NCBI GenBank assembly: GCA_032718475.1
Contig: JAUCBJ010008913.1
Span: 1-47,793, forward strand
DNA length: 47,793 nucleotides
Source: Nemertoderma westbladi
Taxonomy: Eukaryota; Animalia; Xenacoelomorpha
Direction: 5' to 3'
A program made the position numbers and the translations under genes. Below are positions 1 through 22,268 of this stretch, piece after piece; within the stretch, counting starts at the first letter, position 1; each line of letters starts with the position of its first letter. Below the pieces are notes generated by a model. The model was given only the letters and a program-made list of their open reading frames with translations, made no database searches and was not told where the DNA came from.

Positions 1-1988
1 TTCCTGCCAATCGAAACTCATTCGGGGCTCCACAGCGGTTAACTCAAAATCCCAAAACGGGTTAACCACTTTTACCTCTTCACTTAAAACTTCCGGATTT
101 CTATTTAAAAAACGAACAGCGAATTTTTCAACATTAGAAAGTCGATTTCTTTGGAATAAATCCGCGCCGACGGAAGTTAAAACTTCCCAAATTCCGCGAG
201 GTTCTTCTGAAAGCTCTTCCTCCTCAACTCGGTTTACGTATTGCTCCCAAACTTCCGAAGTTGGCGAGATATCGAGTGTTTCGATGAGTCGGGATATCTC
301 TGAATGCGACTCGAAGGGCTCGAGTTGGGCGGCGGCTTTTCCGCGGTCGGCGTCGAGTCGTTTCATCCGGTTGAAGACGTGATGCTCCGCCGTGGATTCC
401 GTAATGAGGTAGTAGATGACGAGGTCGTTGCGACGCCCCACTATCTCCCGGACGTAGTTGAGTCGCGACTCCACCGCGTATCGCCATTCCACATCGAAGA
501 ATATCACGATATCCACCTGGGATATCCCGAGGAGGAGTTTCCAGTGGCAGCGAGTGGAGGCGAGGCAACTCGAGACAGAGGGTTCGTTGTTGAACCGACG
601 GATAAAGTGGGTTGTCTCCATCGCGTTCATCGACCCGTCGACGCAGACGTAAGGAAACCCGTTGCGGGTCATATACCCGCCCAGTATACCCAACATAGAA
701 GAGAAAGACGAGAGGATAAGACAACGTTTCCGTAACGATTTCGCTGTTACCAAAATCTTCTGAAGGACATGGAATTTAGGGGATTCAGTGGGGGGTTTCG
801 AGATCCCATAGAACATTCGATTAGTTATGGGATATAAATAGTTAACAATGTCATCATCGATAGAGAAACAGTTTGTAAAGCAGATCGGGGGTTTAGATAA
901 AACTTTATTCGTTGGGAAAATTAAATCCAGTCGCCATGGATTCAATCGATAGTCTATCGAATTCGAAATCGTTTCGAATTCTAATACATTACTAGGATAA
1001 TTATTTATAAATCTTAATATATCATTAGGTTGGCTTATAATCGGTTCTGTGTGAGTGAATTTATTGGGAGTAGGTTGATGGACTCGCGAGGGTAAAGAAC
1101 CCTCATGCAAGTTCCCGATCCCGCCGAGTTTCAAAAAAATGGGTTTCTTCGACGCCGGACTGCGAGGGTGAGGGAGATTATGGGGGAGATTTGGAGTTGT
1201 ACAAGAGAAATATGAGATTAAATTAAAAATTAAGTCTGGCGGTCGGCTGAAATGAATTCCACACATTAGAGGAGTTTTAATACGATAATTTGTTGGTAAA
1301 AATAAATCCGGATGATTGCAGATACTATTGAGTTTATAAATCGTGGCGAAAGACTCGAAACTGTCGGCGGTGGGGCACCGCAGTCGCAGGTAGTTGTCGT
1401 ATAAACCTTTCTGATTGGTTGATAGACTGCAGGGGACGTGTAATTCCGTGCGGATCGGTAGCTGGTCGACCACGTCGTCTATACAGCGACGCAGGAAGGA
1501 TGAGAGGATCACGGAGCGGAGAGAGACGACGGCGTGAAGGTTGGCCTCCGAGTAGTCGCGAGATATCCTATGCCACGGCATAATAAACTTTATTACTTTG
1601 AGTAAATCAGCGAGGCGGGTTGATAGTTCGGCGCCGTAGCAGAGAACCCGGTGTTTGGAGCGAAGCGAAGAGAAATTATCCCAATTCTTTTCGGATTGAA
1701 CGTCGTCCACGATTAGGAAACCCCAGTATTTATTGCGGAGAGTTTCGGACGACTTTAGGAAACCGTGGGTTGTCAATATAACGTGGTATCGATTCAACTG
1801 GCCGATGTGTTTCTGTTTTATAGACACGCTGCCGGAGCGAGATTCCGCAGCCACACGGAATTTTAACCTCGGGGAGAACCTCCTCAAGGCGGCTTCCCAT
1901 TTTAGTAGACTGTAGTAGTCGCAGACTATAATATGGGGCACCGGGGACGTCCCGCTGGCTAATAGACAGACACATTGGACGCTCTTAC
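1..1988 (-). CDS. dom: Domino/p400/SRCAP-family SNF2 chromatin remodeller, exon 2 (split ATPase lobes; continues beyond the window start)
   Basis: Hand translation from acceptor ttcAG|GT (1990-1989) is stop-free to base 1, which probably explains its absence from the ORF track. It reads (G)KSVQCVCLLA..PHIIVCDYYSLLKWEAALRRFSP..YHVILTTH..WGFLIVDDVQ..FLRRCIDDVVDQLP..HVPCSLSTNQKGLYDNYL..ICNHPDLF..KRCLILSSFSSMLGIL..VDGS..RFNNEP..LASTR..DIVIFFDVEW..VIYYLITESTAE..LSNVEKFAVRFL. This is collinear with SWR1/SRCAP/p400 SNF2_N, HELICc and the post-helicase 'PIERYAMKFL'-type motif. Confidence 0.9.
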
Positions 1989-2051
1989 CTGAACAAAAAT
2001 AATCAGCTTACAAGATAATGATATAGAAAGAACCGTGTTAATAAAACAATA

Positions 2052-2957
2052 TGGGCCAAAATCACTAAAGGTGGCCAAACTTAAGATGGGATTTTCGTCA
2101 AAATTTTTTTCTTTCAAAACCTAAACATAATATATATATCATACAAAAGCTCTTTTTAAATTTAAGGAAAATTCGATAAGCACTGTGGTCAGCTATTAAA
2201 ATTTACTTCACTAAATATATTTGGGTTTTAAGTTAAGTCCACCCTGTAATGCCATTTTCGTATAGAAATAGTATAGAGCATTACAGGGGGGGGGGGGGGC
2301 ATTACAGGGGGGACGCATTACAGCTGCAGGGGGCAATAGCTACATATTTTATAAGGAGAGTATAGAGCATTACAGGGGGGACGCATTACAGCTGCAGGGG
2401 GCTATAGCTACATATTTTATAAGGAGAGTATAGAGCATTACAGGGGGGGGGGATTACAAGGGGGCATTTCCTGCATGTCATTTATCTCTTACAGCTGCAG
2501 GGGGCTATAGCTACATATTTTATAAGGAGAGTATAGAGCATTACAGGGGGGACGCATTACAGCTGCAGGGGGCTATAGCTACATATTTTATAAGGAGAGT
2601 ATAGAGCATTACAGGGGGGGGGGGGGGGGGGGGATTACAAGGGGGCATTTCCTGCATGTCATTTATCTCTTATTTCAATAAACTTCTACATATTTTATAA
2701 TGTTTGGGCAAGTTGAAAAGCCCGCGAAATTTCCCTTTCAAAAAGACCAAATATAAAGACTAACTTGGGAATATTTTATTGACATTTAAGTGGCATTACA
2801 GGGGGGGGGGGGGGGGGGCAAAAAATTGTGTTCAATAACACCGAAAAATGCCGCTTATTTTAAAATATAAATTATTGGAAATGATCGAGGAAGACAAAAG
2901 TTACGGCGTGTCTAATGTTTTTGTTTAGTTTTGGCCACTTTTTGTGAGTTTGGGCCC
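2052..2957. mobile_element. Putative non-autonomous DNA transposon (MITE-like) with imperfect 28-bp TIRs and an internal minisatellite, copy 1
   Basis: Left tgggccaaaatcactaaaggtggccaaa (2052-2079) versus reverse complement of 2930-2957 gggcccaaactcacaaaaagtggccaaa, 23/28 matches. TA flanks; no coding capacity. Confidence 0.55.
2268..2650. repeat. 68-bp minisatellite (gcattacagctgcagggggctatagctacatattttataaggagagtatagagcattacagggggg..) with poly-G tracts
   Basis: Units start at 2315 and 2383 (68-bp spacing). About 4 units here; a different unit arrangement in the duplicate at about 4540-4820. Confidence 0.85.
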
Positions 2958-3039
2958 TATACAGAATGTTCTTTATGGTGAACCAAAAAACCCACTAAAA
3001 ATCGATCATTGTAGTTCGAAGCCATCGAAGGTATTGGTG

Positions 3040-4032
3040 AAAAATATCGCGAGTAAAAATATCGAGAGTAAAAATATCGAGTGTAAAAATTTCGAGAGTA
3101 AAAAGAACGAGAGTAAAAATATCTAGAGTTTTAAAATATTGAGAGTAAAAATATCGAGAGTAAAAATATCGAGAGTAAAAATATCGAGAGAAAATATATC
3201 GCGAGTAAAAATATCGAGAGTAAAAATATCGAGAGTAAAAATATCGAGAGTAAAAATATATATCTAGAGTTTTAAAATATTGAGAGTAAAAATATCGAGA
3301 GTAAAAATATCGAGAGTAAAAATATCGAGAGTAAAAACATCGAGAGTAAAAATATCGAGAGTAAAAATATCGAGAGTAAAAATATCGAGAGTAAAAATAT
3401 CGAGAGTAAAAATATCGAGAGTAAAAATATCGAGAGTAAAAATATATATCTAGAGTTTTAAAATATTGAGAGTAAAAATATCGAGAGTAAAAATATCGAG
3501 AGTAAAAATATCGAGAGTAAAAATATCGAGTGTAAAAATTTCGAGAGTAAAAAGAACGAGAGTAAAAATATCTAGAGTTTTAAAATATTGAGAGTAAAAA
3601 TATCGAGAGTAAAAATATCGAGAGTAAAAATATCGAGAGAAAATATAGCGCGAGTAAAAATATCGAGAGTAAAAATATCGAGAGTAAAAATATCGAGAGT
3701 AAAAATATTGAGAGTAAAAATATCGAGAGTAAAAATATCGAGAGTAAAAATATCGAGAGTAAAAATATTCGAGAGTAAAAATATCGAGAGTAAAAATATT
3801 GAGAGTAAAAATATCGAGAGTAAAAATATCGAGAGTAAAAATATCGAGAGAAAATATATCGCGAGTAAAAATATCGAGAGTAAAAATATCGAGAGTAAAA
3901 ATATATATCTACAGTTTTAAAATATTGAGAGTAAAATATCGAGAGTAAAAATATAGAGAGTAAAAATATCGAGAGTAAAAATATCGAGAGTAAAAACATC
4001 GAGAGTAAAAATATCGAGAGTAAAAATATCGA
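3040..4032. repeat. 15-bp satellite AAAAATATCGAGAGT, short block (about 65 monomers)
   Basis: Direct reading; gives the spurious VKISR/SKNIE/SIFLL/YFYSR ORFs. Confidence 0.98.
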
Positions 4033-4262
4033 GAAACCGTGGGTTGTCAATATAACGTGGTATCGATTCAACTGGCCGATGTGTTTCTGTTTTATAGACA
4101 CGCTGCCGGAGCGAGATTCCGCAGCCACACGGAATTTTAACCTCGGGGAGAACCTCCTCAAGGCGGCTTCCCATTTTAGTAGACTGTAGTAGTCGCAGAC
4201 TATAATATGGGGCACCGGGGACGTCCCGCTGGCTAATAGACAGACACATTGGACGCTCTTAC
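4033..4262 (-). pseudogene. Truncated duplicate (230 bp) of the 5' end of exon 2 inside the intron
   Basis: Matches 1759-1988. Its frame runs directly into the satellite (ORF 3580..4215: ..YHVILTTHGF-SIFLLSIFLL..). Its acceptor is ttaAG rather than ttcAG. Confidence 0.9.
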
Positions 4263-4325
4263 CTTAACAAAAATAATCAGCTTACAAGATAATGATATAG
4301 AAAGAACCGTGTTAATAAAACAATA

Positions 4326-5128
4326 TGGGCCAAAATCACTAAAGGTGGCCAAACTTAAGATGGGATTTTCGTCAAAATTTTTTTCTTTCAAAACCTAAAC
4401 ATAATATATATATCATACAAAAGCTCTTTTTAAATTTAAGGAAAATTCGATAAGCACTGTGGTCAGCTATTAAAATTTACTTCACTAAATATATTTGGGT
4501 TTTAAGTTAAGTCCACCCTGTAATGCCATTTTCGTATAGAAATAGTATAGAGCATTACAGGGGGGGGGGGGCATTACAGGGGGGACGCATTACAGCTGCA
4601 GGGGGCTATAGCTACATATTTTATAAGGAGAGTATAGAGCATTACAGGGGGGACGCATTACAGCTGCAGGGGGCTATAGCTACTAATTTTATAAGGAGAG
4701 TATAGAGCATTACAGGGGAGACGCATTACAGCTGCAGGGGGCTATAGCTACATATTTTATAAGGAGAGTATAGAGCATTACAGGGGGGGGGGGGGGGGGG
4801 GGATTACAGGGGGGCATTTCCTGCATGTCATTTATCTCTTATTTCAATAAACTTCTACATATTTTATAATGTTTGGGCAAGTTGAAAAGCCCGCGAAATT
4901 TCCCTTTCAAAAAGACCAAATATAAAGACTAACTTGGGAATATTTTATTGACATTTAAGTGGCATTACAGGGGGGGGGGGGGGGGGGGGCAAAAAATTGT
5001 GTTCAATAACACCGAAAAATGCCGCTTATTTTAAAATATAAATTATTGGAAATGATCGAGGAAGACAAAAGTTACGGCGTGTCTAATGTTTTTGTTTAGT
5101 TTTGGCCACTTTTTGTGAGTTTGGGCCC
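4326..5128. mobile_element. MITE-like element, copy 2 (within the duplication)
   Basis: Same TIR pair as 2052-2957. Confidence 0.55.
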
Positions 5129-5210
5129 TATACAGAATGTTCTTTATGGTGAACCAAAAAACCCACTAAAAATCGATCATTGTAGTTCGAAGCCATCGAA
5201 GGTATTGGCG

Positions 5211-8200
5211 AAAAATATCGAGAGTAAAAATATCGCAGTAAAAATATCGAGAGTCAAAATATCGCGAGTAAAAATATCGAGAGCAAAAATATCGTGATAA
5301 AAAATATCGAGAGTAAAAATATCGAGGGTAAAAATATCGAGAGTAAAAATATCGAGTGTAAAAATTTCGAGAGTAAAAATTTCGATATATCGAGAGTAAA
5401 CATATTGAGAGAAAAAAATATGGAGAGTAAAAATATGGAGAGTAAAAATATCTAGAGTTTTAAAATATTGAAAGTAAAAAAAATATCAAGAGTAAAAATA
5501 TTGAGAGAAAACAATATGGAGAGTAAAAATATCGAGAGTAAAAATATCGAGAGTAAAAATATCGAGAGAAAAAATATCGAGAGAAAATATATCGAGAGTA
5601 AAAATATCGAGAGTAAAAAGAACGAGAGTAAAAATATCTAGAGTTTTAAAATATTGAGAGTAAAAATATCGAGAGTAAAAATATCGAGAGTAAAAATATC
5701 GAGAGTAAAAATATCGAGAGTAAAAATATCGAGAGTAAAAATATCGAGAGTAAAAATATCGAGAGTAAAAATATCGAGAGTAAAAATATCGAGAGAAAAT
5801 ATATCGCGAGTAAAAATATCGAGAGTAAAAATATCGAGAGTAAAAATATCGAGAGTAAAAATATATATCTAGAGTTTTAAAATATTGAGAGTAAAAATAT
5901 CGAGAGTAAAATATCGAGAGTAAAAATATCGAGAGTAAAAATATCGAGAGTAAAAATAACGAGAGTAAAAATATCGAGAGTAAAAATATCGAGAGTAAAA
6001 ATATCGAGAGTAAAAATATTGAGAGTAAAAATATCGAGAGTAAAAATATCGAGAGTAAAAATATCGAGAGTAAAAATATCGAGAGTAAAAATATCGAGAG
6101 TAAAAACATCGAGAGTAAAAATATCGAGAGTAAAATTATCGAGAGTAAAAATATCGAGAGTAAAAATATTGAGAGTAAAAATATCGAGAGTAAAAATATA
6201 GAGAGTAAAAATATCGAGAGAAAATATATCGCGAGTAAAAATATCGGGAGTAAAAATATCGAGAGTAAAAATAAAAATATCGAGAGTAAAAATATAGAGA
6301 GTAAAAATATCGAGAGAAAATATATCGCGAGTAAAAATATCGAGAGTAAAAATATCGAGAGTAAAAATATCTAGAGTTTTAAAATATCGAGAGTAAAAAT
6401 ATCGAGAGTAAAAATATCGAGAGTAAAATTATCGAGAGTAAAAATATCGAGAGTAAAAATATCGAGAGTAAAAATATCGAGAGTAAAAACATCGAGAGTA
6501 AAAATATCGAGAGTAAAAATATCGAGAGTAAAAATATCGAGAGTAAAAATATCGAGAGTAAAAATATCGAGAGTAAAAACATCGAGAGTAAAAATATCGA
6601 GAGTAAAAATATCGAGAGTAAAAATATAGAGAGTAAAAATATCGAGAGAAAATATATCGCGAGTAAAAATATCGAGAGTAAAAATATCGAGAGTAAAAAT
6701 ATGGAGAGTAAAAATATCGAGAGTAAAAATATCGAGAGTAAAAATATCGAGAGTAAAAATCTCGACTGTTGAAAAATATCGAAAGTAAAAATATCGAGGG
6801 TAAAAATAAAAATATCGAGAGTAAAAATATAGAGAGTAAAAATATCGAGAGAAAATATATCGCGAGTAAAAATATCGAGAGTAAAAATATCGAGAGTAAA
6901 AATATCGAGAGTAAAAATATCTAGAGTTTTAAAATATTGAGAGTAAAAATATCGAGAGTAAAAATATCGAGAGTAAAAATATCGAGAGTAAAAATATCGA
7001 GAGTAAAAACATCGAGAGTAAAAATATCGAGAGTAAAAATATATATCTAGAGTTTTAAAATATTGAGAGTAAAAATATCGAGAGTAAAAACATCGAGAGT
7101 AAAAATATCGAGAGTAAAAATATCGAGAGTAAAAATATCGAGAGTAAAAATATCGAGAGTAAAAACATCGAGAGTAAAAATATCGAGAGTAAAATTATCG
7201 AGAGTAAAAATATCGAGAGTAAAAATATCGAGAGTAAAAATATCGAGAGTAAAAATATAGAGAGTAAAAATATCGAGAGAAAATATATCGCGAGTAAAAA
7301 TATCGGGAGTAAAAATATCGAGAGTAAAAATAAAAATATCGAGAGTAAAAATATAGAGAGTAAAAATATCGAGAGAAAATATATCGCGAGTAAAAATATC
7401 GAGAGTAAAAATATCGAGAGTAAAAATATCTAGAGTTTTAAAATATTGAGAGTAAAAATATCGAGAGTAAAAATATCGAGAGTAAAAATATCGAGAGTAA
7501 AAATATCGAGAGTAAAAATATCGAGAGTAAAAATATCGAGAGTAAAAATATCGAGAGTAAAAACATCGAGAGTAAAAATATCGAGAGTAAAAATATCGAG
7601 AGTAAAAATATATATCTAGAGTTTTAAAATATTGAGAGTAAAAATATCGAGAGTAAAAATATCGAGAGTAAAAATATCGAGAGTAAAAATATCGAGAGTA
7701 AAAATATCGAGAGTAAAAATATCGAGAGTAAAAACATCGAGAGTAAAAATATCGAGAGTAAAAATATCGAGAGTAAAAATATCGAGAGTAAAAATATCGA
7801 GAGTAAAAATATCGAGAGTAAAAATATAGAGAGTAAAAATATCGAGAGAAAATATATCGCGAGTAAAAATATCGAGAGTAAAAACATCGAGAGTAAAAAT
7901 ATCGAGAGTAAAAATATCGAGAGTAAAAATATCGAGAGTAAAAACATCGAGAGTAAAAATATCGAGAGTAAAAATATCGAGAGTAAAAATATCGAGAGTA
8001 AAAATATCGAGAGTAAAAATATCGAGAGTAAAAATATAGAGAGTAAAAATATCGAGAGAAAATATATCGCGAGTAAAAATATCGAGAGTAAAAACATCGA
8101 GAGTAAAAATATCGAGAGTAAAAATATCGAGAGTAAAAATATCGAGAGTAAAAATATCGAGAGTAAAAATATCGAGAGTAAAAATCTCGACTGTTGAAAA

Positions 8201-11200
8201 ATATCGAAAGTAAAAATATCGAGGGTAAAAATAAAAATATCGAGAGTAAAAATATAGAGAGTAAAAATATCGAGAGAAAATATATCGCGAGTAAAAATAT
8301 CGAGAGTAAAAATATCGAGAGTAAAAATATCTAGAGTTTTAAAATATTGAGAGTAAAAATATCGAGAGTAAAAATATCGAGAGTAAAAATATCGAGAGTA
8401 AAAATATCGAGAGTAAAAATATCGAGAGTAAAAATATCGAGAGTAAAAATATCGAGAGTAAAAACATCGAGAGTAAAAATATCGAGAGTAAAAATATCGA
8501 GAGTAAAAATATATATCTAGAGTTTTAAAATATTGAGAGTAAAAATATCGAGAGTAAAAATATCGAGAGTAAAAATATCGAGAGTAAAAATATCGAGAGT
8601 AAAAATATCGAGAGTAAAAATATCGAGAGTAAAAATATCGAGAGTAAAAACATCGAGAGTAAAAATATCGAGAGTAAAAATATCGAGAGTAAAAATAAAA
8701 ATATCGAGAGTAAAAATAAAAATATCGAGAGTAAAAATATAGAGAGTAAAAATATAGAGAGTAAAAATATCGAGAGAAAATATATATATCGCGAGTAAAA
8801 ATATCGAGAGTAAAAATATCTAGAGTTTTAAAATATTGAGAGTAAAAATATCGAGAGTAAAAATATCGAGAGTAAAAATATAGAGAGTAAAAATATCGAG
8901 AGAAAATATATCGCGAGTAAAAATATCGAGAGTAAAAATATCGAGAGTAAAAATATCTAGAGTTTTAAAATATTGAGAGTAAAAATATCTAGAGTTTTAA
9001 AATATTGAGAGTAAAAATATCGAGAGTAAAAATATCGAGAGTAAAAATATCGAGAGTAAAACCATCGAGAGTAAAAATATCGAGAGTAAAAATATCGAGA
9101 GTAAAAATATATATCTAGAGTTTTAAAATATTGAGAGTAAAAATATCGAGAGTAAAAATATCGAGAGTAAAAATATCGAGAGTAAAAATATCGAGAGTAA
9201 AAATATCGAGAGTAAAAATATCGAGAGTAAAAATATCGAGAGTAAAAATATCGAGAGTAAAAATATCGAGAGTAAAAATATCGAGAGTAAAAATATAGAG
9301 AGTAAAAATATCGAGAGAAAATATATCGCGAGTAAAAATATCGAGAGTAAAAATATCGAGAGTAAAAATAAAAATATCGAGAGTAAAAATATATAGAGAG
9401 TAAAAATATCGAGAGAAAATATATCGCGAGTAAAAATATCGAGAGTAAAAATATCGAGAGTAAAAATATCGAGAGTAAAAATAAAAATATCGAGAGTTTT
9501 AAAATATTGAGAGTAAAAATATCGAGAATAAAAATATCGAGAGTAAAAATATCGAGAGTAAAAATATCTAGAGTTTTAAAATATCGAGAGTAACAATATC
9601 GAGAGTAAAAATATCGAGAGTAAAAATATCGAGAGAAAATATATCGCGAGTAAAAATATCGAGAGTAAAAATATCGAGAGTAAAAATAAAAATATCGAGA
9701 GTAAAAATATATAGAGAGTAAAAATATCGAGAGAAAATATATCGCGAGTAAAAATATCGAGAGTAAAAATATCGAGAGTAAAAATATCTAGAGTTTTAAA
9801 ATATTGAGAGTAAAAATATCGAGAGTAAAAATATCGAGAGTAAAAATATCGAGAGTAAAAATATCGAGAGTAAAAATATCGAGAGTAAAAATATCGAGAG
9901 TAAAAATATCGAGAGTAAAAATATCGAGAGTAAAAATATCGAGAGTAAAAATATCTAGAGTTTTAAAATATCGAGAGTAACAATATCGAGAGTAAAAATA
10001 TAGAGAGTAAAAATATCGAGAGTAAAAATAAAAATATCGAGAGTAAAAATATAGAGAGTAAAAATATCGAGAGTAAAAATAAAAATATCGAGAGTAAAAA
10101 TATCGAGAGTAAAAATATCGAGAGTAAAAATATCGAGAGTAAAAATATCGAGAGTAAAAATATCGAGAGTAAAAATATAGAGAGTAAAAATATCGAGAGA
10201 AAATATATCGCGAGTAAAAATATCGGGAGTAAAAATATCGAGAGTAAAAATAAAAATATCGAGAGTTTTAAAATATTGAGAGTAAAAATATCGAGAGTAA
10301 AAATATCGAGAGTAAAAATATCGAGAGTAAAAATATCTAGAGTTTTAAAATATCGAGAGTAACAATATCGAGAGTAAAAATATCGAGAGTAAAAATATCG
10401 AGAGAAAATATATCGCGAGTAAAAATATCGAGAGTAAAAATATCGAGAGTAAAAATATCGAGAGTAAAAATAAAAATATCGAGAGTAAAAATATATAGAG
10501 AGTAAAAATATCGAGAGAAAATATATCGCGAGTAAAAATATCGAGAGTAAAAATATCGAGAGTAAAAATATCTAGAGTTTTAAAATATTGAGAGTAAAAA
10601 TATCGAGAGTAAAAATATCGAGAGTAAAAATATCGAGAGTAAAAATATCGAGAGTAAAAATATCGAGAGTAAAAATATCGAGAGTAAAAATATCTAGAGT
10701 TTTAAAATATCGAGAGTAACAATATCGAGAGTAAAAATATAGAGAGTAAAAATATCGAGAGTAAAAATAAAAATATCGAGAGTAAAAATATAGAGAGTAA
10801 AAATATCGAGAGTAAAAATAAAAATATCGAGAGTAAAAATATCGAGAGAAAATATATCGCGAGTAAAAATATCGAGAGTAAAAATATCGAGAGTAAAAAT
10901 ATCGAGAGTAAAAATATCGAGAGTAAAAATATCGAGAGTAAAAACATCGAGAGTAAAAATATCTAGAGTTTTAAAATATTGAGAGTAAAAATATCGAGAG
11001 TAAAAATATCGAGAGTAAAAATATCGAGAGTAAAAATAAAAATATCGAGAGTAAAAATATCGAGAGTAAAAATATCGAGAGTAAAAATATCGAGAGTAAA
11101 AATATCGAGAGTAAAAATATAGAGAGTAAAAATATCGAGAGAAAATATATCGCGAGTAAAAATATCGGGAGTAAAAATATCGAGAGTAAAAATAAAAATA

Positions 11201-14200
11201 TCGAGAGTTTTAAAATATTGAGAGTAAAAATATCGAGAGTAAAAATATCGAGAGTAAAAATATCGAGAGTAAAAATATCTAGAGTTTTAAAATATCGAGA
11301 GTAACAATATCGAGAGTAAAAATATCGAGAGTAAAAATATCGAGAGAAAATATATCGCGAGTAAAAATATCGAGAGTAAAAATATCGAGAGTAAAAATAA
11401 AAATATCGAGAGTAAAAATATATAGAGAGTAAAAATATCGAGAGAAAATATATCGCGAGTAAAAATATCGAGAGTAAAAATATCGAGAGTAAAAATATCT
11501 AGAGTTTTAAAATATTGAGAGTAAAAATATCGAGAGTAAAAATATCGAGAGTAAAAATATCGAGAGTAAAAATATCGAGAGTAAAAATATCGAGAGTAAA
11601 AATATCGAGAGTAAAAATATCGAGAGTAAAAATATCTAGAGTTTTAAAATATCGAGAGTAACAATATCGAGAGTAAAAATATAGAGAGTAAAAATATCGA
11701 GAGTAAAAATAAAAATATCGAGAGTAAAAATATAGAGAGTAAAAATATCGAGAGTAAAAATAAAAATATCGAGAGTAAAAATATCGAGAGAAAATATATC
11801 GCGAGTAAAAATATCGAGAGTAAAAATATCGAGAGTAAAAATATCGAGAGTAAAAATATCGAGAGTAAAAATATCGAGAGTAAAAACATCGAGAGTAAAA
11901 ATATCTAGAGTTTTAAAATATTGAGAGTAAAAATATCGAGAGTAAAAATATCGAGAGTAAAAATATCGAGAGTAAAAATAAAAATATCGAGAGTAAAAAT
12001 ATCGAGAGTAAAAATATCGAGAGTAAAAATATCGAGAGTAAAAATATCGAGAGTAAAAATATAGAGAGTAAAAATATCGAGAGAAAATATATCGCGAGTA
12101 AAAATATCGGGAGTAAAAATATCGAGAGTAAAAATAAAAATATCGAGAGTTTTAAAATATTGAGAGTAAAAATATCGAGAGTAAAAATATCGAGAGTAAA
12201 AATATCTAGAGTTTTAAAATATCGAGAGTAACAATATCGAGAGTAAAAATATCGAGAGTAAAAATATCGAGAGAAAATATATCGCGAGTAAAAATATCGA
12301 GAGTAAAAATATCGAGAGTAAAAATAAAAATATCGAGAGTAAAAATATATAGAGAGTAAAAATATCGAGAGAAAATATATCGCGAGTAAAAATATCGAGA
12401 GTAAAAATATCGAGAGTAAAAATATCTAGAGTTTTAAAATATTGAGAGTAAAAATATCGAGAGTAAAAATATCGAGAGTAAAAATATCGAGAGTAAAAAT
12501 ATCGAGAGTAAAAATATCGAGAGTAAAAATATCGAGAGTAAAAATATCTAGAGTTTTAAAATATCGAGAGTAACAATATCGAGAGTAAAAATATAGAGAG
12601 TAAAAATATCGAGAGTAAAAATAAAAATATCGAGAGTAAAAATATAGAGAGTAAAAATATCGAGAGTAAAAATAAAAATATCGAGAGTAAAAATATCGAG
12701 AGAAAATATATCGCGAGTAAAAATATCGAGAGTAAAAATATCGAGAGTAAAAATATCGAGAGTAAAAACATCGAGAGTAAAAATATCTAGAGTTTTAAAA
12801 TATTGAGAGTAAAAATATCGAGAGTAAAAATATCGAGAGTAAAAATATCTAGAGTAAAAATATCTAGAGTTTTAAAATATCGAGAGTAAAAATATCGAGA
12901 GTAAAAATATCGAGAGTAAAAATATCGAGAGTAAAAATATCTAGAGTTTTAAAATATTGAGAGTAAAAATATCGAGAGTAAAAATATCGAGAGTAAAAAT
13001 ATCGGGAGTAAGAATATCGAGTGTTGAAAAATATCGAGAGTAAAAATATCGAGAGTAAAAATATCGAGAGTAAAAATATCTAGAGTAAAAATATCTAGAG
13101 TTTTAAAATATCGAGAGTAAAAATATCGAGAGTAAAAATATCGAGAGTAAAAATAAAAATATCGAGAGTAAAAATATCGAGAGAAAATATATCGCGAGTA
13201 AAAATATCGAGAGTAAAAATATCGAGAGTAAAAATATCGAGAGTAAAAATATCGAGAGTAAAAATATCGAGAGTAAAAACATCGAGAGTAAAAATATCGA
13301 GAGTAAAAATATCGAGAGTAAAAATATCGAGAGTAAAAATATCGAGAGTAAAAATATAGAGAGTAAAAATATCGAGAGAAAATATATCGCGAGTAAAAAT
13401 ATCGAGAGTAAAAATATCGAGAGTAAAAATAAAAATATCGAGAGTAAAAATATATAGAGAGTAAAAATATCGAGAGAAAATATATCGCGAGTAAAAATAT
13501 CGGGAGTAAAAATATCGAGAGTAAAAATAAAAATATCTAGAGTTTTAAAATATTGAGAGTAAAAATATCGAGAGTAAAAATATCGAGAGTAAAAATATCG
13601 AGAGTAAAAATAAAAATATCGAGAGTAAAAATATCGAGAGTAAAAATATCGAGAGTAAAAATATCGAGAGTAAAAATATCGAGAGTAAAAATATCGAGAG
13701 TAAAAATATAGAGAGTAAAAATATCGAGAGTAAAAATATCGAGAGTAAAAATATCGAGAGTAAAAATATCTAGAGTTTTAAAATATCGAGAGTAACAATA
13801 TCGAGAGTAAAAATATAGAGAGTAAAAATATCTAGAGTTTTAAAATATCGAGAGTAACAATATCGAGAGTAAAAATATCGAGAGTAAAAATATCGAGAGA
13901 AAATATATCGCGAGTAAAAATATCGAGAGTAAAAATATCGAGAGTAAAAATAAAAATATCGAGAGTAAAAATATATAGAGAGTAAAAATATCGAGAGAAA
14001 ATATATCGCGAGTAAAAATATCGGGAGTAAAAATATCGAGAGTAAAAATAAAAATATCGAGAGTTTTAAAATATTGAGAGTAAAAATATCGAGAGTAAAA
14101 ATATCGAGAGTAAAAATATCGAGAGTAAAAATATCTAGAGTTTTAAAATATCGAGAGTAACAATATCGAGAGTAAAAATATCGAGAGTAAAAATATCGAG

Positions 14201-15146
14201 AGAAAATATATCGCGAGTAAAAATATCGAGAGTAAAAATATCGAGAGTAAAAATAAAAATATCGAGAGTAAAAATATATAGAGAGTAAAAATATCGAGAG
14301 AAAATATATCGCGAGTAAAAATATCGAGAGTAAAAATATCGAGAGTAAAAATATCTAGAGTTTTAAAATATTGAGAGTAAAAATATCGAGAGTAAAAATA
14401 TCGAGAGTAAAAATATCGAGAGTAAAAATATCGAGAGTAAAAATATCGAGAGTAAAAATATCGAGAGTAAAAATATCTAGAGTTTTAAAATATCGAGAGT
14501 AACAATATCGAGAGTAAAAATATAGAGAGTAAAAATATCGAGAGTAAAAATAAAAATATCGAGAGTAAAAATATAGAGAGTAAAAATATCGAGAGTAAAA
14601 ATAAAAATATCGAGAGTAAAAATATCGAGAGAAAATATATCGCGAGTAAAAATATCGAGAGTAAAAATATCGAGAGTAAAAATATCGAGAGTAAAAACAT
14701 CGAGAGTAAAAATATCTAGAGTTTTAAAATATTGAGAGTAAAAATATCGAGAGTAAAAATATCGAGAGTAAAAATATCTAGAGTAAAAATATCTAGAGTT
14801 TTAAAATATCGAGAGTAAAAATATCGAGAGTAAAAATATCGAGAGTAAAAATATCGAGAGTAAAAATATCTAGAGTTTTAAAATATTGAGAGTAAAAATA
14901 TCGAGAGTAAAAATATCGAGAGTAAAAATATCGGGAGTAAGAATATCGAGTGTTGAAAAATATCGAGAGTAAAAATATCGAGAGTAAAAATATCGAGAGT
15001 AAAAATATCTAGAGTAAAAATATCTAGAGTTTTAAAATATCGAGAGTAAAAATATCGAGAGTAAAAATATCGAGAGTAAAAATATCGAGAGTAAAAATAT
15101 CGAGAGTAAAAACATCGAGAGTAAAAATATCGAGAGTAAAAATATC
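5211..15146. repeat. 15-bp satellite AAAAATATCGAGAGT, about 9.9 kb (roughly 650 monomers) with higher-order structure
   Basis: Continuous array with recurrent variants (atctagagttttaaaatattg, gagaaaatatatcgcgagt, taacaatatc, aaaaacatc, aaaaataaaaatatc) repeating in blocks of about 0.9-1.9 kb. Confidence 0.99.
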
Positions 15147-15961
15147 CTAAGTAAAAGAAAAAGCGTGTAGCCAAAGAACGAAATCAACAATAAAAATTCT
15201 GTCTCACCCAGCAAAGAGGAGGGAGGTGAAACTATCTGTTTCAAACTTCCTGCAATCTCATTAAGATTTGTAGAAAAATTAGGGGGGGGGGGGGGGGGGG
15301 GCGGGGTACCTGAATAACGACACTATATTGTGTAGTTTATTATTGGTGTTATGGGTGAGCCCATGAAGTTAGCCAATGTTTCGTTGGTAGCTACAGTCTT
15401 AGTGTTTTTTTTTTACAAAAACCGAGGCCTATATAAATTGTTACTTTCGTAATATATTTATTTGTTAATTTCTGCGGTACTAGTTTATATAGCGTATGCA
15501 TTGGCGCACATGCAATGCATTTTTTGAATGAATTTAATGAATGAATTGAATGAATTTTTGTTTTCACAAAAATTTTTGATATAACAATTTTTAAATTTTC
15601 GTTGATGTTTCATTCCAAAAATTACAGCCAATTTTACTAGAATAATTTACTAAATAAATAATTTACCCTCGTTATTTTTATATGTGGAGACAAATTAAAT
15701 TAAAAACAAATTAAATTAAATTAGGCTAAAAAAAAATGTAAAAAATATATTTTAGAAAATTTCATATACCGGTAAGAAAAAAATAAATTATTTAAATAAG
15801 AAAAAAATAATAAAAAAAATTCACAAAAAAAATAATAATACTGGGTAGGTAATACAAGTGGAATTTCTTAAAAAGTGTGTTGTGTAGAAAAGGTTTGAAC
15901 GTAAGCAAAATCCATGCACACTCTCAAAAGTTATTGCTGGTATGACAATAAACATTCTTAC

Positions 15962-17327
15962 CTAAACCCTCGTCGTCCCCGAGAATCGAATTCAACCCCT
16001 CCGTAGCCATGGAAACGAGCCACGCCAATCCGATCTGTTGAAACTCGAACAACTCCGGATTGGGGACGGCTAGGCGTCCGGCCAGGAACGGATTGACGCA
16101 TTCCCGGAGTCTCACGGCGACCGGAAGCCGCTCCCGTCCGCACTCCGCCACCTCATTCAGCGACCGCCCTCGACCGGGCGTCGCTGGGGATTCGTCGCAA
16201 CTCGATTCCGAGTCGGAAACAACCTCGGAAACCGGCTCGGCTGGAAACCGCAACGCTGGAAAGGAACTAAGCAGCTCGGAAATATCGGTGTTGGAATCGT
16301 CCCGCAACATCCGCAGCTCAACCGCCGGATCTTCCGACGACTCTAAACACTCATCTTCATCAATAACATCTTCGTCGTTAGAAATGGAATCCGGCCGATA
16401 TAAAACGCAGATTTTATCGAACGCGGGGCGAAGTTTATAGCCATTCGGTAGAAACGATTCGATATCGCAGATTAAAGGATTCAAATCCTCGAATCTGTCG
16501 TCGTTAATTTCTACACCGGATTTTAAAATTCCCCCAATTCCGGACCAGAAACGTTTAATCTCTTCAGCCAGGTGATTCGCTTTCGCTTTAACTGCCGTTA
16601 TATCCGCCAGATGCTTGCGTTTCAATTTGTTTTCATTGTCCCGGTGGTATTTTCTCGCCGAATAGGCTAGCAGCTTCGCAGCAGCTTTCTTCCAAATAAG
16701 TTCTTCCGCGAAATCCGCTGCCATCCACGTCGCTTCCTCCAGTAAATAATCCCAGGAAGTTTTGTAACGCGACGGTTCAATTATTTTAGGGAGTCTCGTT
16801 CGACTCCATAGGCCTTCCTTTCTTAAGTTTTTCACCCGTTGGTGAGTGTGTGCGTCCAGCTTAGCAATGTCGATGGATGTTGACGGAGGTTTCGGCGCGT
16901 TCTCAGGCGTTGTATTACCGGTACCGGAAACGCGAGATAAATTTCGAAAATGTTGACTTGGGTTCTGGGATACGTTACCATAATTGGGTTGATTTCCCCT
17001 CTGTTGGGTCGAAAGATACCCATACTTCCAGACTAGCCCAGCCAGGTGTTTTATTTGTTTATGATTAGTTAATTTCTTATTAGCTAAAAAGTTTGAGAAA
17101 GCGAATGATGGTCGTTTAAGCCACGAGGAATAATCAACGATATTACCACCAGATTCCAAAAAGTACAATTCTAGTATGTGTGAAGAATACTCATATTCAA
17201 TTTCACTCAATTTATTTGAATTAAAAACAATAGCCCGTTTCCTCCCAGATAATTTCATTGACTTTGGATCTGATTCTTTAATTTCGCTGGACTGTACGGA
17301 CAGTTTGCGCTTTATAGGCGTTCCCAT
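15962..17327 (-). CDS. dom: Domino/p400/SRCAP-family remodeller, exon 1 (EP400 N-terminal-like region, HSA domain, start of SNF2 ATPase)
   Basis: ORF 15924..17327 contains ELYFLESGGNIVDY (EP400/Domino N-term-like), LRKEGLWSRTRLPKIIEP..KTSWDYLLEEATWMAADFAEE..WKK (HSA) and LFEFQQIGLAWL..LNSILGDDEGLG (Q motif/Walker A). Donor TTAG|GTAAGA at 15962/15961. Exon length 1366 nt (phase 1) joins in frame to exon 2, giving GLG|KSVQ. Confidence 0.92.
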
Positions 17328-18439
17328 AACTCCAATTTGCCAATATCAGAATATCATGAATATCATATCATCATTACAGCATTAGGCTTACTACCTGCTG
17401 ACCTGGCTCAAATCACAAATCGGTTTCAGTCTGTCAGTACCCCGACACACACCTTGGTATAATGATCGTTTAATGTTTTGGTTAGAAAAGCCCGCCTCTG
17501 TAACCTGCTCATTTGGTATATACTGAACTGATATATAATATAATATCTGTATACTGGTACCAGTATAGGCAGATAGGGATAGGCCTATACCAGTACAGTA
17601 CATCAGACAGTCAGAAAATCAACGGGTTTGCTTATCTGCAAGGTGAACTCCAAAACGGAACTCAATATCCAATATTGGTTTACAGGTTTATGTATACTGC
17701 ATGGTATAGATATTAGTTAATCCAGTAAGCAGTTCAGCGGCTCTCTGCTCTAGTCAGCTAGTTACGTAGGCCTAATAAATACCGGCATTCGAAAACACTA
17801 AACTATTTCAGTATTTAACATTGACTGATTGAGTAAGGCAGCATCAGGAATTGAAGAGTTCAATAGGCTAATTTGAATCGCAATAGGCCTAACTCAAGGC
17901 TGATGGGAGCAATTGAGTAGGGGCCTAAAATATGAAATACTATAGTTCAAAAAATGTTGTAGTAACCCTATATCGCTCTAAAAGAATTGAGTAACAAAAA
18001 GTACCAATCAGACAATTTAAGAATAAAATTACGTATTAGGCCTACCAGTACATAAAACTGTAAAAAACGGGGGAAAAACGTATAACGTTTTTTGTTCCAA
18101 TATTCTCTCGACACCTTTGCCTTTATTAACCTCGGTTGCCGCGTTACGCTCGGTAAAGAAAATAATGTACCGGTACCTCGAGAATATTGAAAAAAATATA
18201 TACTTATTTTTTCCCATGTACCGGTATTGAGTGACTGATTGATGTAATAAATAATTATTACATGCAGAGTAACACTTGTTCACAATTACAGCATTACAGT
18301 ACAATAATATAGTAATGTATCCTCATGGTCCTGGTCCTCACGGCGAAAGCAATGACCTGCAAACTGGAGGCGACGTTGTTCTAGTGTCAAGCTTGGGGGA
18401 AACAATGAGACACCTCCAATGTTATATAGTGTCTGGTTG

Positions 18440-19090
18440 GATATGTGTGCATTGTACTTGACACAATGAGCCCGGCGTACAGTAGCATTCTTGTGAATGT
18501 GCCATCCAGAGATTTGGTGTCCTCAGCAGTTAGAGCCCAGGACGGACTCCCATAGAAAGAGTACTGGAACTATTGCTGCTCTAATTAATCGGACCTTAAG
18601 TTTCTGATTAATTCTATGTGACTTCCAAATCCTGGAAAGCCTATTCAAGGCTGCCCATGACTTTTCCTTACGTATTCGAAGGTCCTCCATCTGACTTCCA
18701 GATCCATGATCCCAGGTTATAGAAGTCATCCGCATGCTCAAGCATACCATCCTTTGAGCTCATGCTCATCCGGTCAGAGACTTGCTGAGGACTTTCAAAG
18801 TTAACTGTCAAAATTGTGGTCTTTTTGGTGTTTACAAAAAGACCAACACTAGAAGCAGCATGTTCTAATGAGCTGAGGAGCCGTTGGGCTCCCTCTAGTG
18901 ATTCTGAGAGTACTCCTAAGTTATCAGCAAAGTCTAGATCAGTTAGGTACTTGGCAGAATTTCCTCGACTTCTGGAGCCAGTAGGTGGAGTTCCATCACC
19001 CCATCATCATTATGATGATCTAAGGACATGCGTACTGTAGAACATAGTCAACCACAATTATGATCAAGAATGGCGCAAGTGTGTCTCCTG
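18440..19090 (-). mobile_element. Degenerate RTE-like LINE, C-terminal half of the reverse transcriptase
   Basis: Minus strand: GDTLAPFLIIIVVDYVL..YLTDLDFADNLGVLSESLEGAQRLLSSLEHAASSVGLFVNTKKT..DLRIRKEKSWAALNRLSRIWKS..LKVRLIRAAIVPVLF, with frameshifts. Confidence 0.8.
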
Positions 19091-19437
19091 TTGGGGTAAA
19101 TGTACTGTATAAAAATTAGAATAATACTAATTTAATGGAGGATAGGTGGGTGTTCAGGGTGGGTCTATATGTTCTTTAATAAGTAGAGATTCTTTAATGC
19201 ACAAATCCAAATTATTGGATGCAGAAGTTAATATTTTAAAATCACCTTTGCTAAGTACAGTAGGTGGTCTTCCGTTAGAGAATGGTCTAAAATACTGGAG
19301 TCTTTGGGTGGTTTAATTCTCGAGCCAGTGTATAATGAAACGCCTGAGTGTTCTACGATCCGTTCCTCTAAGTGTCGTATTGTTTTACCGATGTAAGAGG
19401 CACTACAGCCACCACAGGAAAATAGGTACACTGTATT
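19091..19437 (-). mobile_element. Penelope-like element, GIY-YIG endonuclease portion
   Basis: VYLFSCGGCSASYIGKTIRHLEERIVEHSGVSLYTG..SSILDH.. followed by LCIKESLLIKEHIDPTLN. Confidence 0.85.
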
Positions 19438-20301
19438 TTATTTATTTATTTATTTCATAAAAATCGGACAGGCCGACAGTTTAAAATACGTCAAACACAA
19501 TTTACAGGTTAAAATCCTCAGTAGGTAGGCTAATTAGCTACTAATCACACATCAATTTAGATCTATTGATCAATAACTTAAATCACATTGATTTGATACA
19601 CCAAAGTAGTTGAGTATATAATGGCGTCTCCTTGCAAGTGGGAGAGACAGTTTGTGGCACTGATCAATAAAATAGGCGTCCATTCTATCCTTGATGGATG
19701 GTTCTCCGGGAGCCACCCTCGACAATATACTTTTGACTGAGTATTTCATCGTTGCCAGTGAACTCAAGTAGGGAAGTGAGAATCTCGCAGATGCTTTAGC
19801 GTATATGCTGCCAAGACCAATGTAATTGCTGCCACTACGGGTAACATTGCGTATGAGGGTGATGCCGAGCCCAGAGTTCAAGCTTGTATTTGGGCAGCTC
19901 CGCAAACTCATGATTGTCCGAATAGAGGACCTGAACACATCATTGGCAAATATACTACCATTAAATAGCAAATATAAGGTGGAGTTACTGGCATATCGCC
20001 CAATACATAACAAACCCCTTAGGAGCCTCCTATAATGAATTTCCAGGATTTCAATCTGCGATTGTGATAGGGCACCAAGAAGGAATTTAAGTCTATATAA
20101 AATCGAGGGCACGCCCACAGCCTTCCACAATCTAACCACTGTCTTGCAGTCCAACCACTTAACGGTCCATGATTTCCTGCGGAAAATTGCATGGACCACC
20201 GACATGGTCCTTATGCAGTATTGTAGAGCATCCTGTTTCTTTACGGCAAGGTTGAATCCGAGGAATACCAACTCTTTCGCTTCAGTATTGGACTGTGATC
20301 G
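19438..20301 (-). mobile_element. 5'-truncated LINE (RTEX-like) with (TAAA)n tail and 9-bp TSD CACTGTATT
   Basis: TSD at 19429-19437 and 20302-20310; (ttta)n tail at about 19438-19455. Encodes FLGF..VRLWKAVGVPSILY..LEIHYRRLLRGLL..SNSTLYLL, a post-RT region of LINE ORF2. The clade call is tentative. Confidence 0.8.
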
Positions 20302-20915
20302 CACTGTATTGGAACGCATGTTGGATGGCAAGCGATATTTATATCTAAACATGGCGGATAAACGATATGGGGGCTTGAAAATGACTTTTAATTCTATGTG
20401 GGGTAAGGCCTTACGGAAAAGTTTATTAAGTCTATTCCTTATTTGGTAACCGTGGGACCCAGTAAAAGGGAGGATGAAGTAAACAGGCTTTTTATCTACT
20501 GTTTGAGGTTGTTGGCTGGGAGGGGAATGTTGCTTGTCTAAGAACATTTTCAACGCCCTATCGATAAGTACACCAGGGTAACCATTTAACAATAGGATAT
20601 TCTTAAGTGTAATAAATTCGGTATGGAAAATAAGGTAAAAGTATGTATAACTAATTTTGAAAATTCGAAAAATTAGGGTATAAATCAACCCAAATTTATT
20701 TTTAAACGGGATAAAACTGGAAAAAGAAGTATATAAGCCGGTAAAGGTGGGTTTACGGTAAGCTGAAGTAATGGACTGAAGAATGTTCGGGTTGGGTCAC
20801 TTTGGCAAGAAAAGCTTTGGCTATATCTGCAATCAACGAGGACCCCATGGCGACGCCATCTATTTGTTTAGATAGTTTTTCATTAAAAACAAATCGATTA
20901 TCTATTAAACACATT
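20302..20915 (-). mobile_element. Penelope-like element, RT and thumb/linker portion (internally deleted)
   Basis: FVFNEKLSKQIDGVAMGSSL, YRKPTFTGLYTSFSSFIP..LIYTLIFRIFKIS..LKNILLLNGYP..LPFTG..IRNRL..LPSNMRSNTV. Joins to YLFSC once the LINE insert is removed. Confidence 0.85.
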
Positions 20916-21830
20916 CTTGCTGCATAATTTCATCAGGAATCCCATATAATGAAAGTATGCTGAATATACGTGAGCGAGAGACTGAATCAAAGGCCTTGAA
21001 GAAGTCAACAAAGATAACAGCCAGATGCCTGTTTCTTTTTTGATAACTCTTCAATTATCCTTCTAAGTGCCAAAATGGGCTCCATGGTCCCACGACCTTT
21101 AGGGAACCCATTCTGATTTCCACGGGCAGTCTCTCAATGGGATCCCTGATGCGATTTAATATAATTATATTGTATAGCTTTGCAGCAATCGAGATCAATG
21201 AGATTCCCCGAAAATAACCATAGAGTGTTAGGTTGCCCTTCTTGGGAACTGGCACCAACTTATTTGTTATCATTTCTTGTGGGACTCTTGTTGTTCTGTA
21301 CATGTCTACTATGATGGGATAGATGAGCTTTAAACACTCAGGTATTTTAAAGACCTCAAGGGGAACACTATCTACTCCACTGGCACGATTGGTCTTAATG
21401 CTCTTTGCAACAGCCTTCACTTCTGCAAAGGAGATATCGCAAATGGGAATATCTGTGAGTACAGACTCAGACACTTTTACTTCTATAAAGTTATCAGGCA
21501 ATACCCTGTCATTATTGAGGAGCCTTTCAAAGTGGGCCTTCCAACCATTGAGGCGATCGTGGTTGGTTGGCTTTTCCGACCAGTAAGCAAGTTGATCGAT
21601 TTCCATGCCTGGGGTGATAGCCTGCTGTCGTCAGCATCACTGATGGCATCAACCTGTTGGTTTATTAGCTCCTGTAGATTAACAGAGTACTGCCTGTTCA
21701 GGGACCTAGATGCAGCCTTAACTGCATTCTTGGCTGCTGTAGTCTGTTTTAGTCGGGACTCTTCCTGCGCCTTATAGAGCTCATTTCGGCAGTTCTGAAT
21801 TTTGTTGTCAGTCCAGGGGGCCCTTTTCCT
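20916..21830 (-). mobile_element. Degenerate RTE-like LINE, N-terminal half of the reverse transcriptase
   Basis: WKAHFERLLN..RASGVDSVPLEVFK..VPVPKKGNLT..FRGISLISIAAKLYNIIILNRIR..VIFVDFFKAFDSVSR..ILSLYGIPDEI. Collinear with the 18440-19090 fragment. Confidence 0.85.
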
Positions 21831-21858
21831 ATTTCGAGGGTATACAGTTACTACAGTA

Positions 21859-22268
21859 TATAAATAAATGTAAAATACATAAATTATGTTATGAAAAAGT
21901 TAGCTTATATATTTATGGTGGCGTTTGGAGTCATGTTAATAGTTTGTAGCTACTGGTTATTAATAGCTACCGGTAGGTAATGCAGTAGGCATTTATACTG
22001 TCTGGCTGGCTGACTGGCTGTCAGGCAATTAATAATAAATTCCAACTACTGTATTGTTAATTTGGTAACCATGACGGCGTGATGTAAAGTCACACCAATA
22101 ATGGGACATTACCACATAATAATACACTAAATACTGTACAATACTAATTGTACAGGCCATTATAATACTGTAATGTCATTTAAAGTTGTAAAAGCGCTAA
22201 ATAACAACTCGCTGTTAATACTAACGGCATTGAGTGATGTTACAATTTTGGAATAAAATTATTTTATT
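21859..22268 (+). repeat. Dispersed repeat of about 410 bp, copy A
   Basis: tataaataaatgtaaaa..ttagcttatat..ggcgtttggag..taccggtaggtaatgcagtaggc..taaataacaactcgctgttaatactaacggc..aataaaattatt is shared with 26598-26999. A short fragment also lies at about 25412-25455. Confidence 0.8.

What the first reader, a model, noticed from the sequence alone, without database searches (positions are those of the whole stretch)
4257..4280. Candidate newly born recursive splice site ('ratchet point') created by duplication inside a 14-kb satellite-filled intron
Seen: exon 2 begins with GTAAGAG, so its acceptor reads AG|GTAAGA, and the duplication placed a second such junction at 4264-4257, which the polymerase meets first. 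Splicing exon 1 (..TTAG) to 4262 would rebuild TTAG|GTAAGA, the same core as the real donor at 15962. That could then splice to 1988 and give the correct mRNA. Established: AG|GT zero-length exons define recursive splicing in long Drosophila and vertebrate introns. Inference: the intron could be removed in two steps (11.7 kb, then 2.27 kb), making an otherwise truncating partial-exon duplication harmless and showing a simple route by which ratchet points arise.
Basis: partly seen in the sequence, partly recalled or inferred. Interest (0 to 1): 0.8.

Follow-up and report, generated by a model that had tools for sequence, protein, structure and literature searches.

The report
Weakened decoy splice site from duplication
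Inside a 14-kb repeat-filled intron of an animal chromatin-remodelling gene lies a second copy of the intron's end and the next exon's first 230 bases; its splice-acceptor signal differs at a key base and the copy was not seen in the assembled contigs of two public DNA samples, so it is likely a skipped decoy and likely not a newly born stepwise-splicing site.

Summary
The geometry is as described. A Domino/p400-like gene has a 13,973-nt intron (15961-1989, minus strand). A tandem duplication put a second AG|GTAAGA at 4264-4257, followed by 230 nt of exon 2 and then satellite. Splicing there would rebuild the real donor's 9-mer.

The copy's acceptor is TTAAG|G, the real one TTCAG|G, and this is the only difference in the 538 nt next to the breakpoint. 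Only 4 of 243 high-confidence fly recursive sites have AAG. No good donor follows to define a cryptic exon. Contigs of two public DNA samples show only the single-copy CAG form, though contigs can drop minor variants. No RNA holder was listed, so use of the site is untested.

The donor-like exon start is ordinary: the Gly-Lys-Ser codons of the Walker A motif dictate it.

Best reading (0.55): a private or young two-copy duplication of an intron-exon border whose weakened acceptor is skipped. Artefact 0.2; working ratchet point about 0.12. The scan earlier noted much larger splice-border repeats in other genes of this genome (unchecked AI notes). Low interest.

The parts
15962..17345 (-). Exon 1 reading frame of a Domino/p400/SWR1-family gene (HSA domain; ends ...GDDEGL-G). 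Start taken from the stop-to-stop frame; true start not mapped
   Evidence: Pfam HSA E 5e-12; aligns to oyster domino-like P0121 up to the Walker A motif
15956..15964 (-). Real 5' splice site TAG|GTAAGA (first intron base 15961), phase 1 in the Gly codon
   Evidence: inferred from frame continuity, no RNA
5211..15146 (.). Large 15-bp satellite array (about 640 units, higher-order variants)
4033..5211 (-). Upstream copy (B) of intron 3' end plus first 230 nt of exon 2
   Evidence: 1177 aligned columns against copy A, 5 substitutions, 4 indels
4257..4265 (-). Duplicated junction AAG|GTAAGA, the candidate ratchet point; -3 base C>A at 4265
4033..4262 (-). 230-nt exon-2 copy, identical to 1988-1759, fused to satellite through 2 nt of microhomology (TC)
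3040..4032 (.). Small 15-bp satellite array carrying the rare marker variants of the large array's distal end (second breakpoint near 6000), since changed by an internal 449-nt repeat and deletions
2049..2960 (.). MITE-like element (36-nt terminal inverted repeats, 81% complementary) holding a 68-bp minisatellite; present in both copies
   Evidence: high summed contig depth at both ends; the label MITE is inference
1983..1991 (-). Real acceptor CAG|GTAAGA (last intron base 1989)
   Evidence: CAG in contigs of X1 and X2
1..1988 (-). Exon 2 (SNF2 and Helicase_C domains; open to the window edge)
   Evidence: one unbroken contig over 1-2100 in X1

Best explanation
A tandem duplication of about 2 kb copied the end of the intronic satellite, the intron's 3' end and 230 nt of exon 2 upstream of the real exon, and the copied acceptor reads AAG where the real one reads CAG, so the spliceosome likely passes over it and joins exon 1 directly to the real acceptor at 1989. 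Shown: duplication geometry, the C>A difference, lack of a consensus donor behind the copy, in-frame exon 1-exon 2 join. Inferred: that the duplication is a real young or private allele made by microhomology-type repair at the satellite; that AAG without a downstream donor loses to the CAG site 2.27 kb further on; that the C>A change may have been kept because it disarms a truncating decoy. Rare use of the copy, followed by re-splicing or by decay of a truncated message, is not excluded.
For: Only difference in 4033-4570 is the -3 acceptor base; a post-hoc chance of 1.3% that one of 5 substitutions in 1177 nt hits -1..-3. AAG|GT at 4 of 243 high-confidence fly recursive sites and none flagged as in the Duff set (60 of 61 text hits read, 4 off-centre). 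No GT[AG]A between 4261 and 3040; best donor GAG|GTTAAA at 4141, whereas fly ratchet points need a cryptic exon with a donor, mostly under 100 nt away (PMC8605326 Introduction; PMC6224609 section 15). The rebuilt donor equals the mature junction, a class repressed by the EJC in mammals. Amphioxus border duplications do not disturb splicing (PMC3087553). The copies differ by 5 substitutions, a 102-nt indel and rearranged satellite ends, so they are not a verbatim assembly repeat.
Against: No RNA was available, so skipping is not shown. AAG sites do occur among fly recursive sites (52 seen among 296 medium-confidence ones), and that table was called with a motif score. The copy keeps the same branch-point-like and U-rich upstream sequence and is transcribed 2.27 kb earlier. 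The EJC appeared not to repress recursive splicing of annotated exons in fly cells in one study. This organism's acceptor preferences are unknown. The duplication was not seen in 2 of 2 informative samples, which fits an artefact as well as a private allele.
Confidence: 0.55

Rival explanations
1. The duplication is an artefact: a chimeric amplified molecule or an assembly join of two haplotypes at the satellite. The AAG would then be a read error or a minor allele.
For: X1 (3159-nt contig, depth 21.1) and X2 (1583 nt, depth 7.1) run unbroken through the breakpoint and read CAG. Depth in bin 4045-4064 equals these single contigs, so no contig bridges exon copy to satellite in X1, X2 or X3. An X1 contig wholly inside the duplicated part has depth 18.4, not double. 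X2 shows the copy-A base at 3038.
Against: Contigs drop minor variants and short links into a high-depth satellite. X2 contigs inside the duplicated upstream part have depth 15.6-22.8 against 7.1 in exon 2, though that part is repeat-laden and X2 coverage is uneven. X3 contigs break at 1753-1761, at the breakpoint, though with a 9-nt overlap at depth about 4 and with other gaps nearby. X1 and X3 differ from the window at 517, so they sample another haplotype. The two copies have diverged in many ways.
Confidence: 0.2
2. One reading: exon 1 is spliced to 4263, the rebuilt TAG|GTAAGA is then spliced to 1989, and the intron is removed in steps of 11.7 and 2.27 kb (a newborn ratchet point).
For: The rebuilt nine-mer is identical to the real donor and no stronger donor competes downstream. 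Upstream acceptor sequence is intact except at -3. AAG recursive sites exist in flies (4 high-confidence), some in introns of 6-14 kb. Re-splicing from rebuilt donors is shown in flies when no EJC protects them (PMC8184009 section 9).
Against: AAG acceptor; no cryptic-exon donor within 100 nt; not seen in two samples; not needed for correct mRNA; the same junction must be silent in the mature mRNA, where exon 2 has YAG sites with pyrimidine runs at 1427, 1160 and 760.
Confidence: 0.12
3. The copied acceptor is used but the rebuilt donor is blocked, giving a message that reads into satellite and stops (688 codons counted from the frame start). This would be a hypomorphic allele tolerated in a heterozygote or because the protein is already degenerate.
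For: The frame stays open to a stop at 3582-3580. EJC repression of rebuilt donors is shown in mammals. ATPase motifs are degenerate.
Against: The AAG acceptor is weak; the spliced frame is intact over 1124 codons, which suggests selection for the full product.
Confidence: 0.08
4. Nested (Rogers-type) removal: AAG|GTAAGA at 4262 acts directly as a donor and splices to 1989, cutting out exactly one duplicated unit; exon 1 then joins the rebuilt AAG acceptor.
For: Duplicated AGGT motifs can form a working intron (6-16% in a minigene; PMC3265369). AGGT sites can act as either donor or acceptor (PMC10809524). C>A at -3 harms the acceptor but leaves a consensus donor context (recalled consensus MAG|GTRAG, also quoted).
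Against: No upstream acceptor defines an exon for this donor. 3'-to-5' order is rare in flies (13 candidates). The product leaves exon 1 with only the weak AAG acceptor.
Confidence: 0.05

Closest known systems
Drosophila intronic ratchet points / zero-nucleotide recursive splicing (PMC8605326 Introduction; PMC6110457 passages and S1 table rows)
   Same: AG|GT inside a long intron; splicing to it would rebuild a strong donor and give the same final mRNA.
   Different: Acceptor is AAG; no nearby cryptic-exon donor; not conserved or seen in other samples; made of a copied real exon start; no intermediates shown; intron 14 kb, whereas fly sites are commonest above 40 kb.
Amphioxus 'mirage' duplications of intron-exon borders (BflGb6, BflGb9, Adh3; PMC3087553 passages)
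   Same: Tandem copy of an intron 3' end plus the exon 5' part upstream of the real exon, carrying splice signals; reported not to disturb splicing.
   Different: Two copies of a unit of about 2 kb that includes satellite, not a minisatellite of 10-160 bp units.
Annotated putative RS-exons repressed by the EJC (PMC6224609 sections 8 and 15)
   Same: The real exon 2 rebuilds a donor at its junction, as 3.6% of human exons do.
   Different: Exon 2 is at least 1988 nt and may be terminal; EJC dependence is untested here.
Intron creation by tandem duplication of AGGT (Rogers model; PMC3265369 passages)
   Same: Duplicated AG|GT pair whose 5' GT and 3' AG bracket exactly one repeat unit.
   Different: Here the duplication spans an existing intron-exon border, so no new intron position arises.
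Partial exon duplications in satellite-rich Drosophila Y genes (PMC8794474 passages)
   Same: Extra exon copies beside satellite-filled introns; microhomology repair proposed for Y rearrangements.
   Different: Those are exon subsets on Y chromosomes, some expressed; no link to recursive splicing in the passages read.

Membership tests
Intronic ratchet point (recursive splice site) | Juxtaposed acceptor and donor (AG|GT) inside an intron | tested here: met
   4264-4257, only AGGTRAG in the intron
Intronic ratchet point (recursive splice site) | Splicing to it rebuilds a strong donor | tested here: met
   TAG|GTAAGA, same nine-mer as the real donor
Intronic ratchet point (recursive splice site) | Strong YAG acceptor | tested here: not met
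   AAG; 4 of 243 high-confidence fly sites have AAG. Rare, not forbidden
Intronic ratchet point (recursive splice site) | Short cryptic RS-exon with a downstream donor (mostly under 100 nt) | tested here: not met
   No GT[AG]A in 4261-3040; best GAG|GTTAAA 121 nt in, by a crude U1-match count only
Intronic ratchet point (recursive splice site) | Conserved or fixed site | tested here: inconclusive
   Not in contigs of 2 of 2 informative samples, but contigs show presence, not absence; no related genomes available
Intronic ratchet point (recursive splice site) | Intermediates, saw-tooth coverage or second-step lariats in nascent RNA | not testable with these tools
   No RNA holder listed
Mirage-type border duplication | Tandem copy spanning an intron-exon border | tested here: met
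Mirage-type border duplication | Minisatellite of short units (10-160 bp), several copies | tested here: not met
   Two copies, unit about 2 kb; known sizes
Mirage-type border duplication | Mature mRNA unaffected | not testable with these tools
   No RNA holder listed
Rogers-type intron from AGGT duplication | 5' GT and 3' AG of duplicated AGGT more than about 60 nt apart | tested here: met
   2274 nt
Rogers-type intron from AGGT duplication | Duplication lies within coding sequence and creates a new intron position | tested here: not met
   It spans an existing acceptor
Annotated putative RS-exon (real exon 2) | Exon-exon junction rebuilds a donor | tested here: met
   GTTTAG|GTAAGAGC; MaxEnt score not computed
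Annotated putative RS-exon (real exon 2) | Skipped on EJC loss | not testable with these tools
   needs knock-down

The most novel reading that the evidence does not exclude
A ratchet point caught at birth: a young, still polymorphic duplication of a donor-like exon start gives an AAG|GT site that is used first and re-spliced, so carriers and non-carriers form a natural before-and-after pair for how recursive sites arise and why the same junction is re-used in the intermediate but silent in the mature mRNA.
Probability: 0.12. Interest if true: 0.6.

Novelty: new member of a known kind. Interest (0 to 1): 0.2.

Why it matters
If the best reading holds it matters little: partial duplications over intron-exon borders with skipped splice signals are known. 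The one mildly useful point is that the single nearby change hits the acceptor's -3 base, as expected if the decoy was being disarmed and not recruited. If recursion were shown, it would document a one-step mutational origin for a ratchet point. My searches listed no paper showing that, within an open-access library only. It would also give a clean test of EJC protection, since the intermediate and the mature mRNA carry the same junction.

Tried and rejected
No whole genome is held, so no species-specific splice-site model and no search for other copies was possible. Sequencing-run search: 6 runs listed, no RNA holder listed; this is no evidence on expression. Placing the organism: 6PGD best hits are 72-75% identical across many animals, and the tree of 43 rows (33 named and 9 unnamed of the 120 hits plus the query; proteins over 560 aa cut to their last 500) gives a long, unresolved branch. 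Rfam: 0 matches. The literature search for AAG acceptor frequency gave nothing used. Considered and set aside: the whole 14-kb intron as a private insertion with an 8-bp target duplication (the intron's last 112 nt are joined to exon 2 in X1 and X2); a verbatim assembly duplication of one haplotype (copies differ); enrichment of AGGTRAG (none); a competing cassette donor in the copy (none good). No MaxEnt scoring was available; my donor ranking is a crude match count to a recalled U1 consensus. Supplements: only the S1 table of PMC6110457 was searched, by text match; bioRxiv supplements could not be seen and were not needed for any claim.

Full report
Gene and intron. The minus strand holds a Domino/p400/SWR1-family gene: HSA domain in exon 1, SNF2 and Helicase_C domains in exon 2, best hit an oyster domino-like protein at 27%. 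Exon 1 aligns up to the Walker A motif and exon 2 continues from its Lys. Joining 15962 to 1988 gives GDDEGLG-KSVQ and 1124 codons without a stop up to the window edge. The intron is 15961-1989, 13,973 nt, most of it a 15-bp satellite. The organism is an animal on a long branch that I could not place. No genome is held.

The observation. AGGTAAGA lies at 4264-4257 and is the only AGGTRAG inside the intron. It belongs to a copy (5211-4033) of the intron's end and the first 230 nt of exon 2 (3040-1759). The copy ends in satellite through 2 nt of microhomology. Rare satellite variants place the other breakpoint near 6000, so the unit was about 2 kb. Segment sizes of 11.7 and 2.27 kb are right. 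Splicing to 4263 would rebuild TAG|GTAAGA, the real donor's nine-mer.

The copies differ by 5 substitutions and 4 indels in 1177 columns. In the 538 nt next to the breakpoint (4033-4570) the only difference is the acceptor's -3 base: TTCAG|G in the real site, TTAAG|G in the copy. CAG is the form in the contigs of two samples, so the copy is the changed one. The chance that one of 5 substitutions hits -1..-3 is 1.3%, computed after seeing it. In the fly catalogue of 539 candidate recursive sites (PMC6110457, passages and S1 table), I read 60 of 61 text hits for AAGGT. Four were off-centre; of the 56 central ones, 4 are high-confidence (of 243) and 52 medium (of 296), and none is flagged as in the Duff set. 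That table was called with a motif score, so the count is partly circular. AAG is rare there, not forbidden.

Exon definition. Fly and vertebrate recursive sites are recognised through a short cryptic exon with a downstream donor (PMC8605326 Introduction; PMC6224609 section 15). Behind the copy there is no GT[AG]A down to 3040. The best candidate is GAG|GTTAAA, 121 nt in (crude match count to a recalled consensus). This cuts both ways: nothing helps define the acceptor, but nothing would compete with the rebuilt donor if it were used.

The donor-like exon start is ordinary. It is spelled by Gly-Lys-Ser codons; GGT then AAG has about 8% chance with this window's codon use. In humans 3.6% of exons rebuild such a donor, 93.8% of these are constitutive, and the EJC represses them (PMC6224609 section 8). 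In flies the EJC blocks re-splicing of mRNA (PMC8184009 section 9), although one study saw no EJC effect on annotated fly RS-exons. The mature junction must stay unused, since exon 2 offers YAG sites at 1427, 1160 and 760. Whatever protects it would likely act on the intermediate too (inference). Recursion is not needed to make the duplication harmless: skipping the copy gives the same mRNA. Use without re-splicing would read into satellite and stop at 3582-3580.

Is the duplication real? Six public runs were listed, none on record as RNA; five were laid. X1 (sample S1) has one 3159-nt contig unbroken over 1-2100 and X2 (sample S2) one 1583-nt contig over 518-2100. Both pass the breakpoint into the true exon and read CAG. 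Depth just inside the junction (4045-4064) equals these single contigs, so no contig links exon copy to satellite in X1, X2 or X3. An X1 contig inside the duplicated part has depth 18.4 against 21.1. Results the other way: X2 contigs in the duplicated upstream part have depth 15.6-22.8 against 7.1 (repeat-laden sequence, uneven library), and X3 contigs break at 1753-1761 (depth about 4, 9-nt overlap, other gaps nearby). Contigs drop minor variants, one of these runs may be the source sample, and X1 and X3 differ from the window at 517. The copies' satellite ends differ by a 449-nt internal repeat and deletions, which argues against a verbatim assembly duplication. It does not exclude a chimera of two haplotypes. 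So the duplication is not shown to be fixed: a private allele or an artefact.

Comparison. It would work like a ratchet point only if the AAG is used. It fails two defining features and the decisive one could not be tested, so I do not file it as one. Structurally it is a two-copy, long-unit relative of the amphioxus 'mirage' border duplications, which were reported not to disturb splicing (PMC3087553 passages). It also has the geometry of Rogers-type AGGT duplications (PMC3265369 passages) and dual-specific sites (PMC10809524 passages), which gives a rival nested route. Partial exon copies beside satellite introns are known from Drosophila Y genes (PMC8794474 passages). PMC7175933 (passages) links DMD pseudoexons to duplications and to recursive sites separately. 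Searches listed no paper showing the birth of a ratchet point by duplication; the library is open-access only.

Earlier notes. Unchecked AI notes on other pieces of this genome describe arrays of hundreds of copied splice borders, including 778 acceptor-donor copies in an NF-kB intron. They gave me the mirage lead, which I then read myself. They are not evidence, but if true this two-copy case is a small instance of something common in this genome and a poorer test bed for recursion.

Verdict. Skipped, weakened decoy 0.55; artefact 0.2; ratchet point 0.12; truncating use 0.08; nested removal 0.05. New member of a known kind; interest 0.2.

Noticed in passing
window 15963-15956 and 1990-1983 (-): The intron is flanked by the same 8 nt (AGGTAAGA) at donor and acceptor. 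This fits a proto-splice site in Gly-Lys codons, but also intron gain by AGGT duplication or an 8-bp target duplication; orthologous gene structures were not available.
   Followed up: partly
window 1-1988 and 15962-17345 (-): The Domino/p400-like protein has degenerate ATPase motifs against the oyster homologue: GDDEGLGKS for ADEMGLGKT, DDVQ for DEAQ, and no QDRCHRIG-type motif VI. Likely a catalytically weak or dead scaffold form, with an intact frame.
   Followed up: partly
window 38158-47793: 52-bp satellite (about 185 units) in which 168 units carry GTAAGT and 170 TTGTCAG on the + strand. It could be another splice-border array whose host exon lies beyond the window; the minus strand also reads like an acceptor.
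   Followed up: partly
window 2049-2960 (and its copy in 4323-5131): MITE-like element with 36-nt terminal inverted repeats and an internal 68-bp minisatellite, ending about 60 nt before the acceptor; high copy number by summed contig depth.
   Followed up: partly
window 23176-24660 (-): 6-phosphogluconate dehydrogenase in one uninterrupted frame, at most 75% identical to any hit.
   Followed up: partly
window 31658-32038 (+): DUF2039 frame (Pfam E 1e-23).
   Followed up: no
window 18668-21899 (-): Broken frames that look by eye like LINE-type reverse-transcriptase and endonuclease remnants; two of them gave no Pfam hit, so the label is recalled resemblance only.
   Followed up: no
window 15312-15303 (-): A chance CAG|GTACCC in the intron's 5' part: a YAG|GT with a weak donor, a background comparator for the candidate site.
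   Followed up: no
window 517: X1 and X3 read T where the window has C (+ strand), inside exon 2.
   Followed up: no
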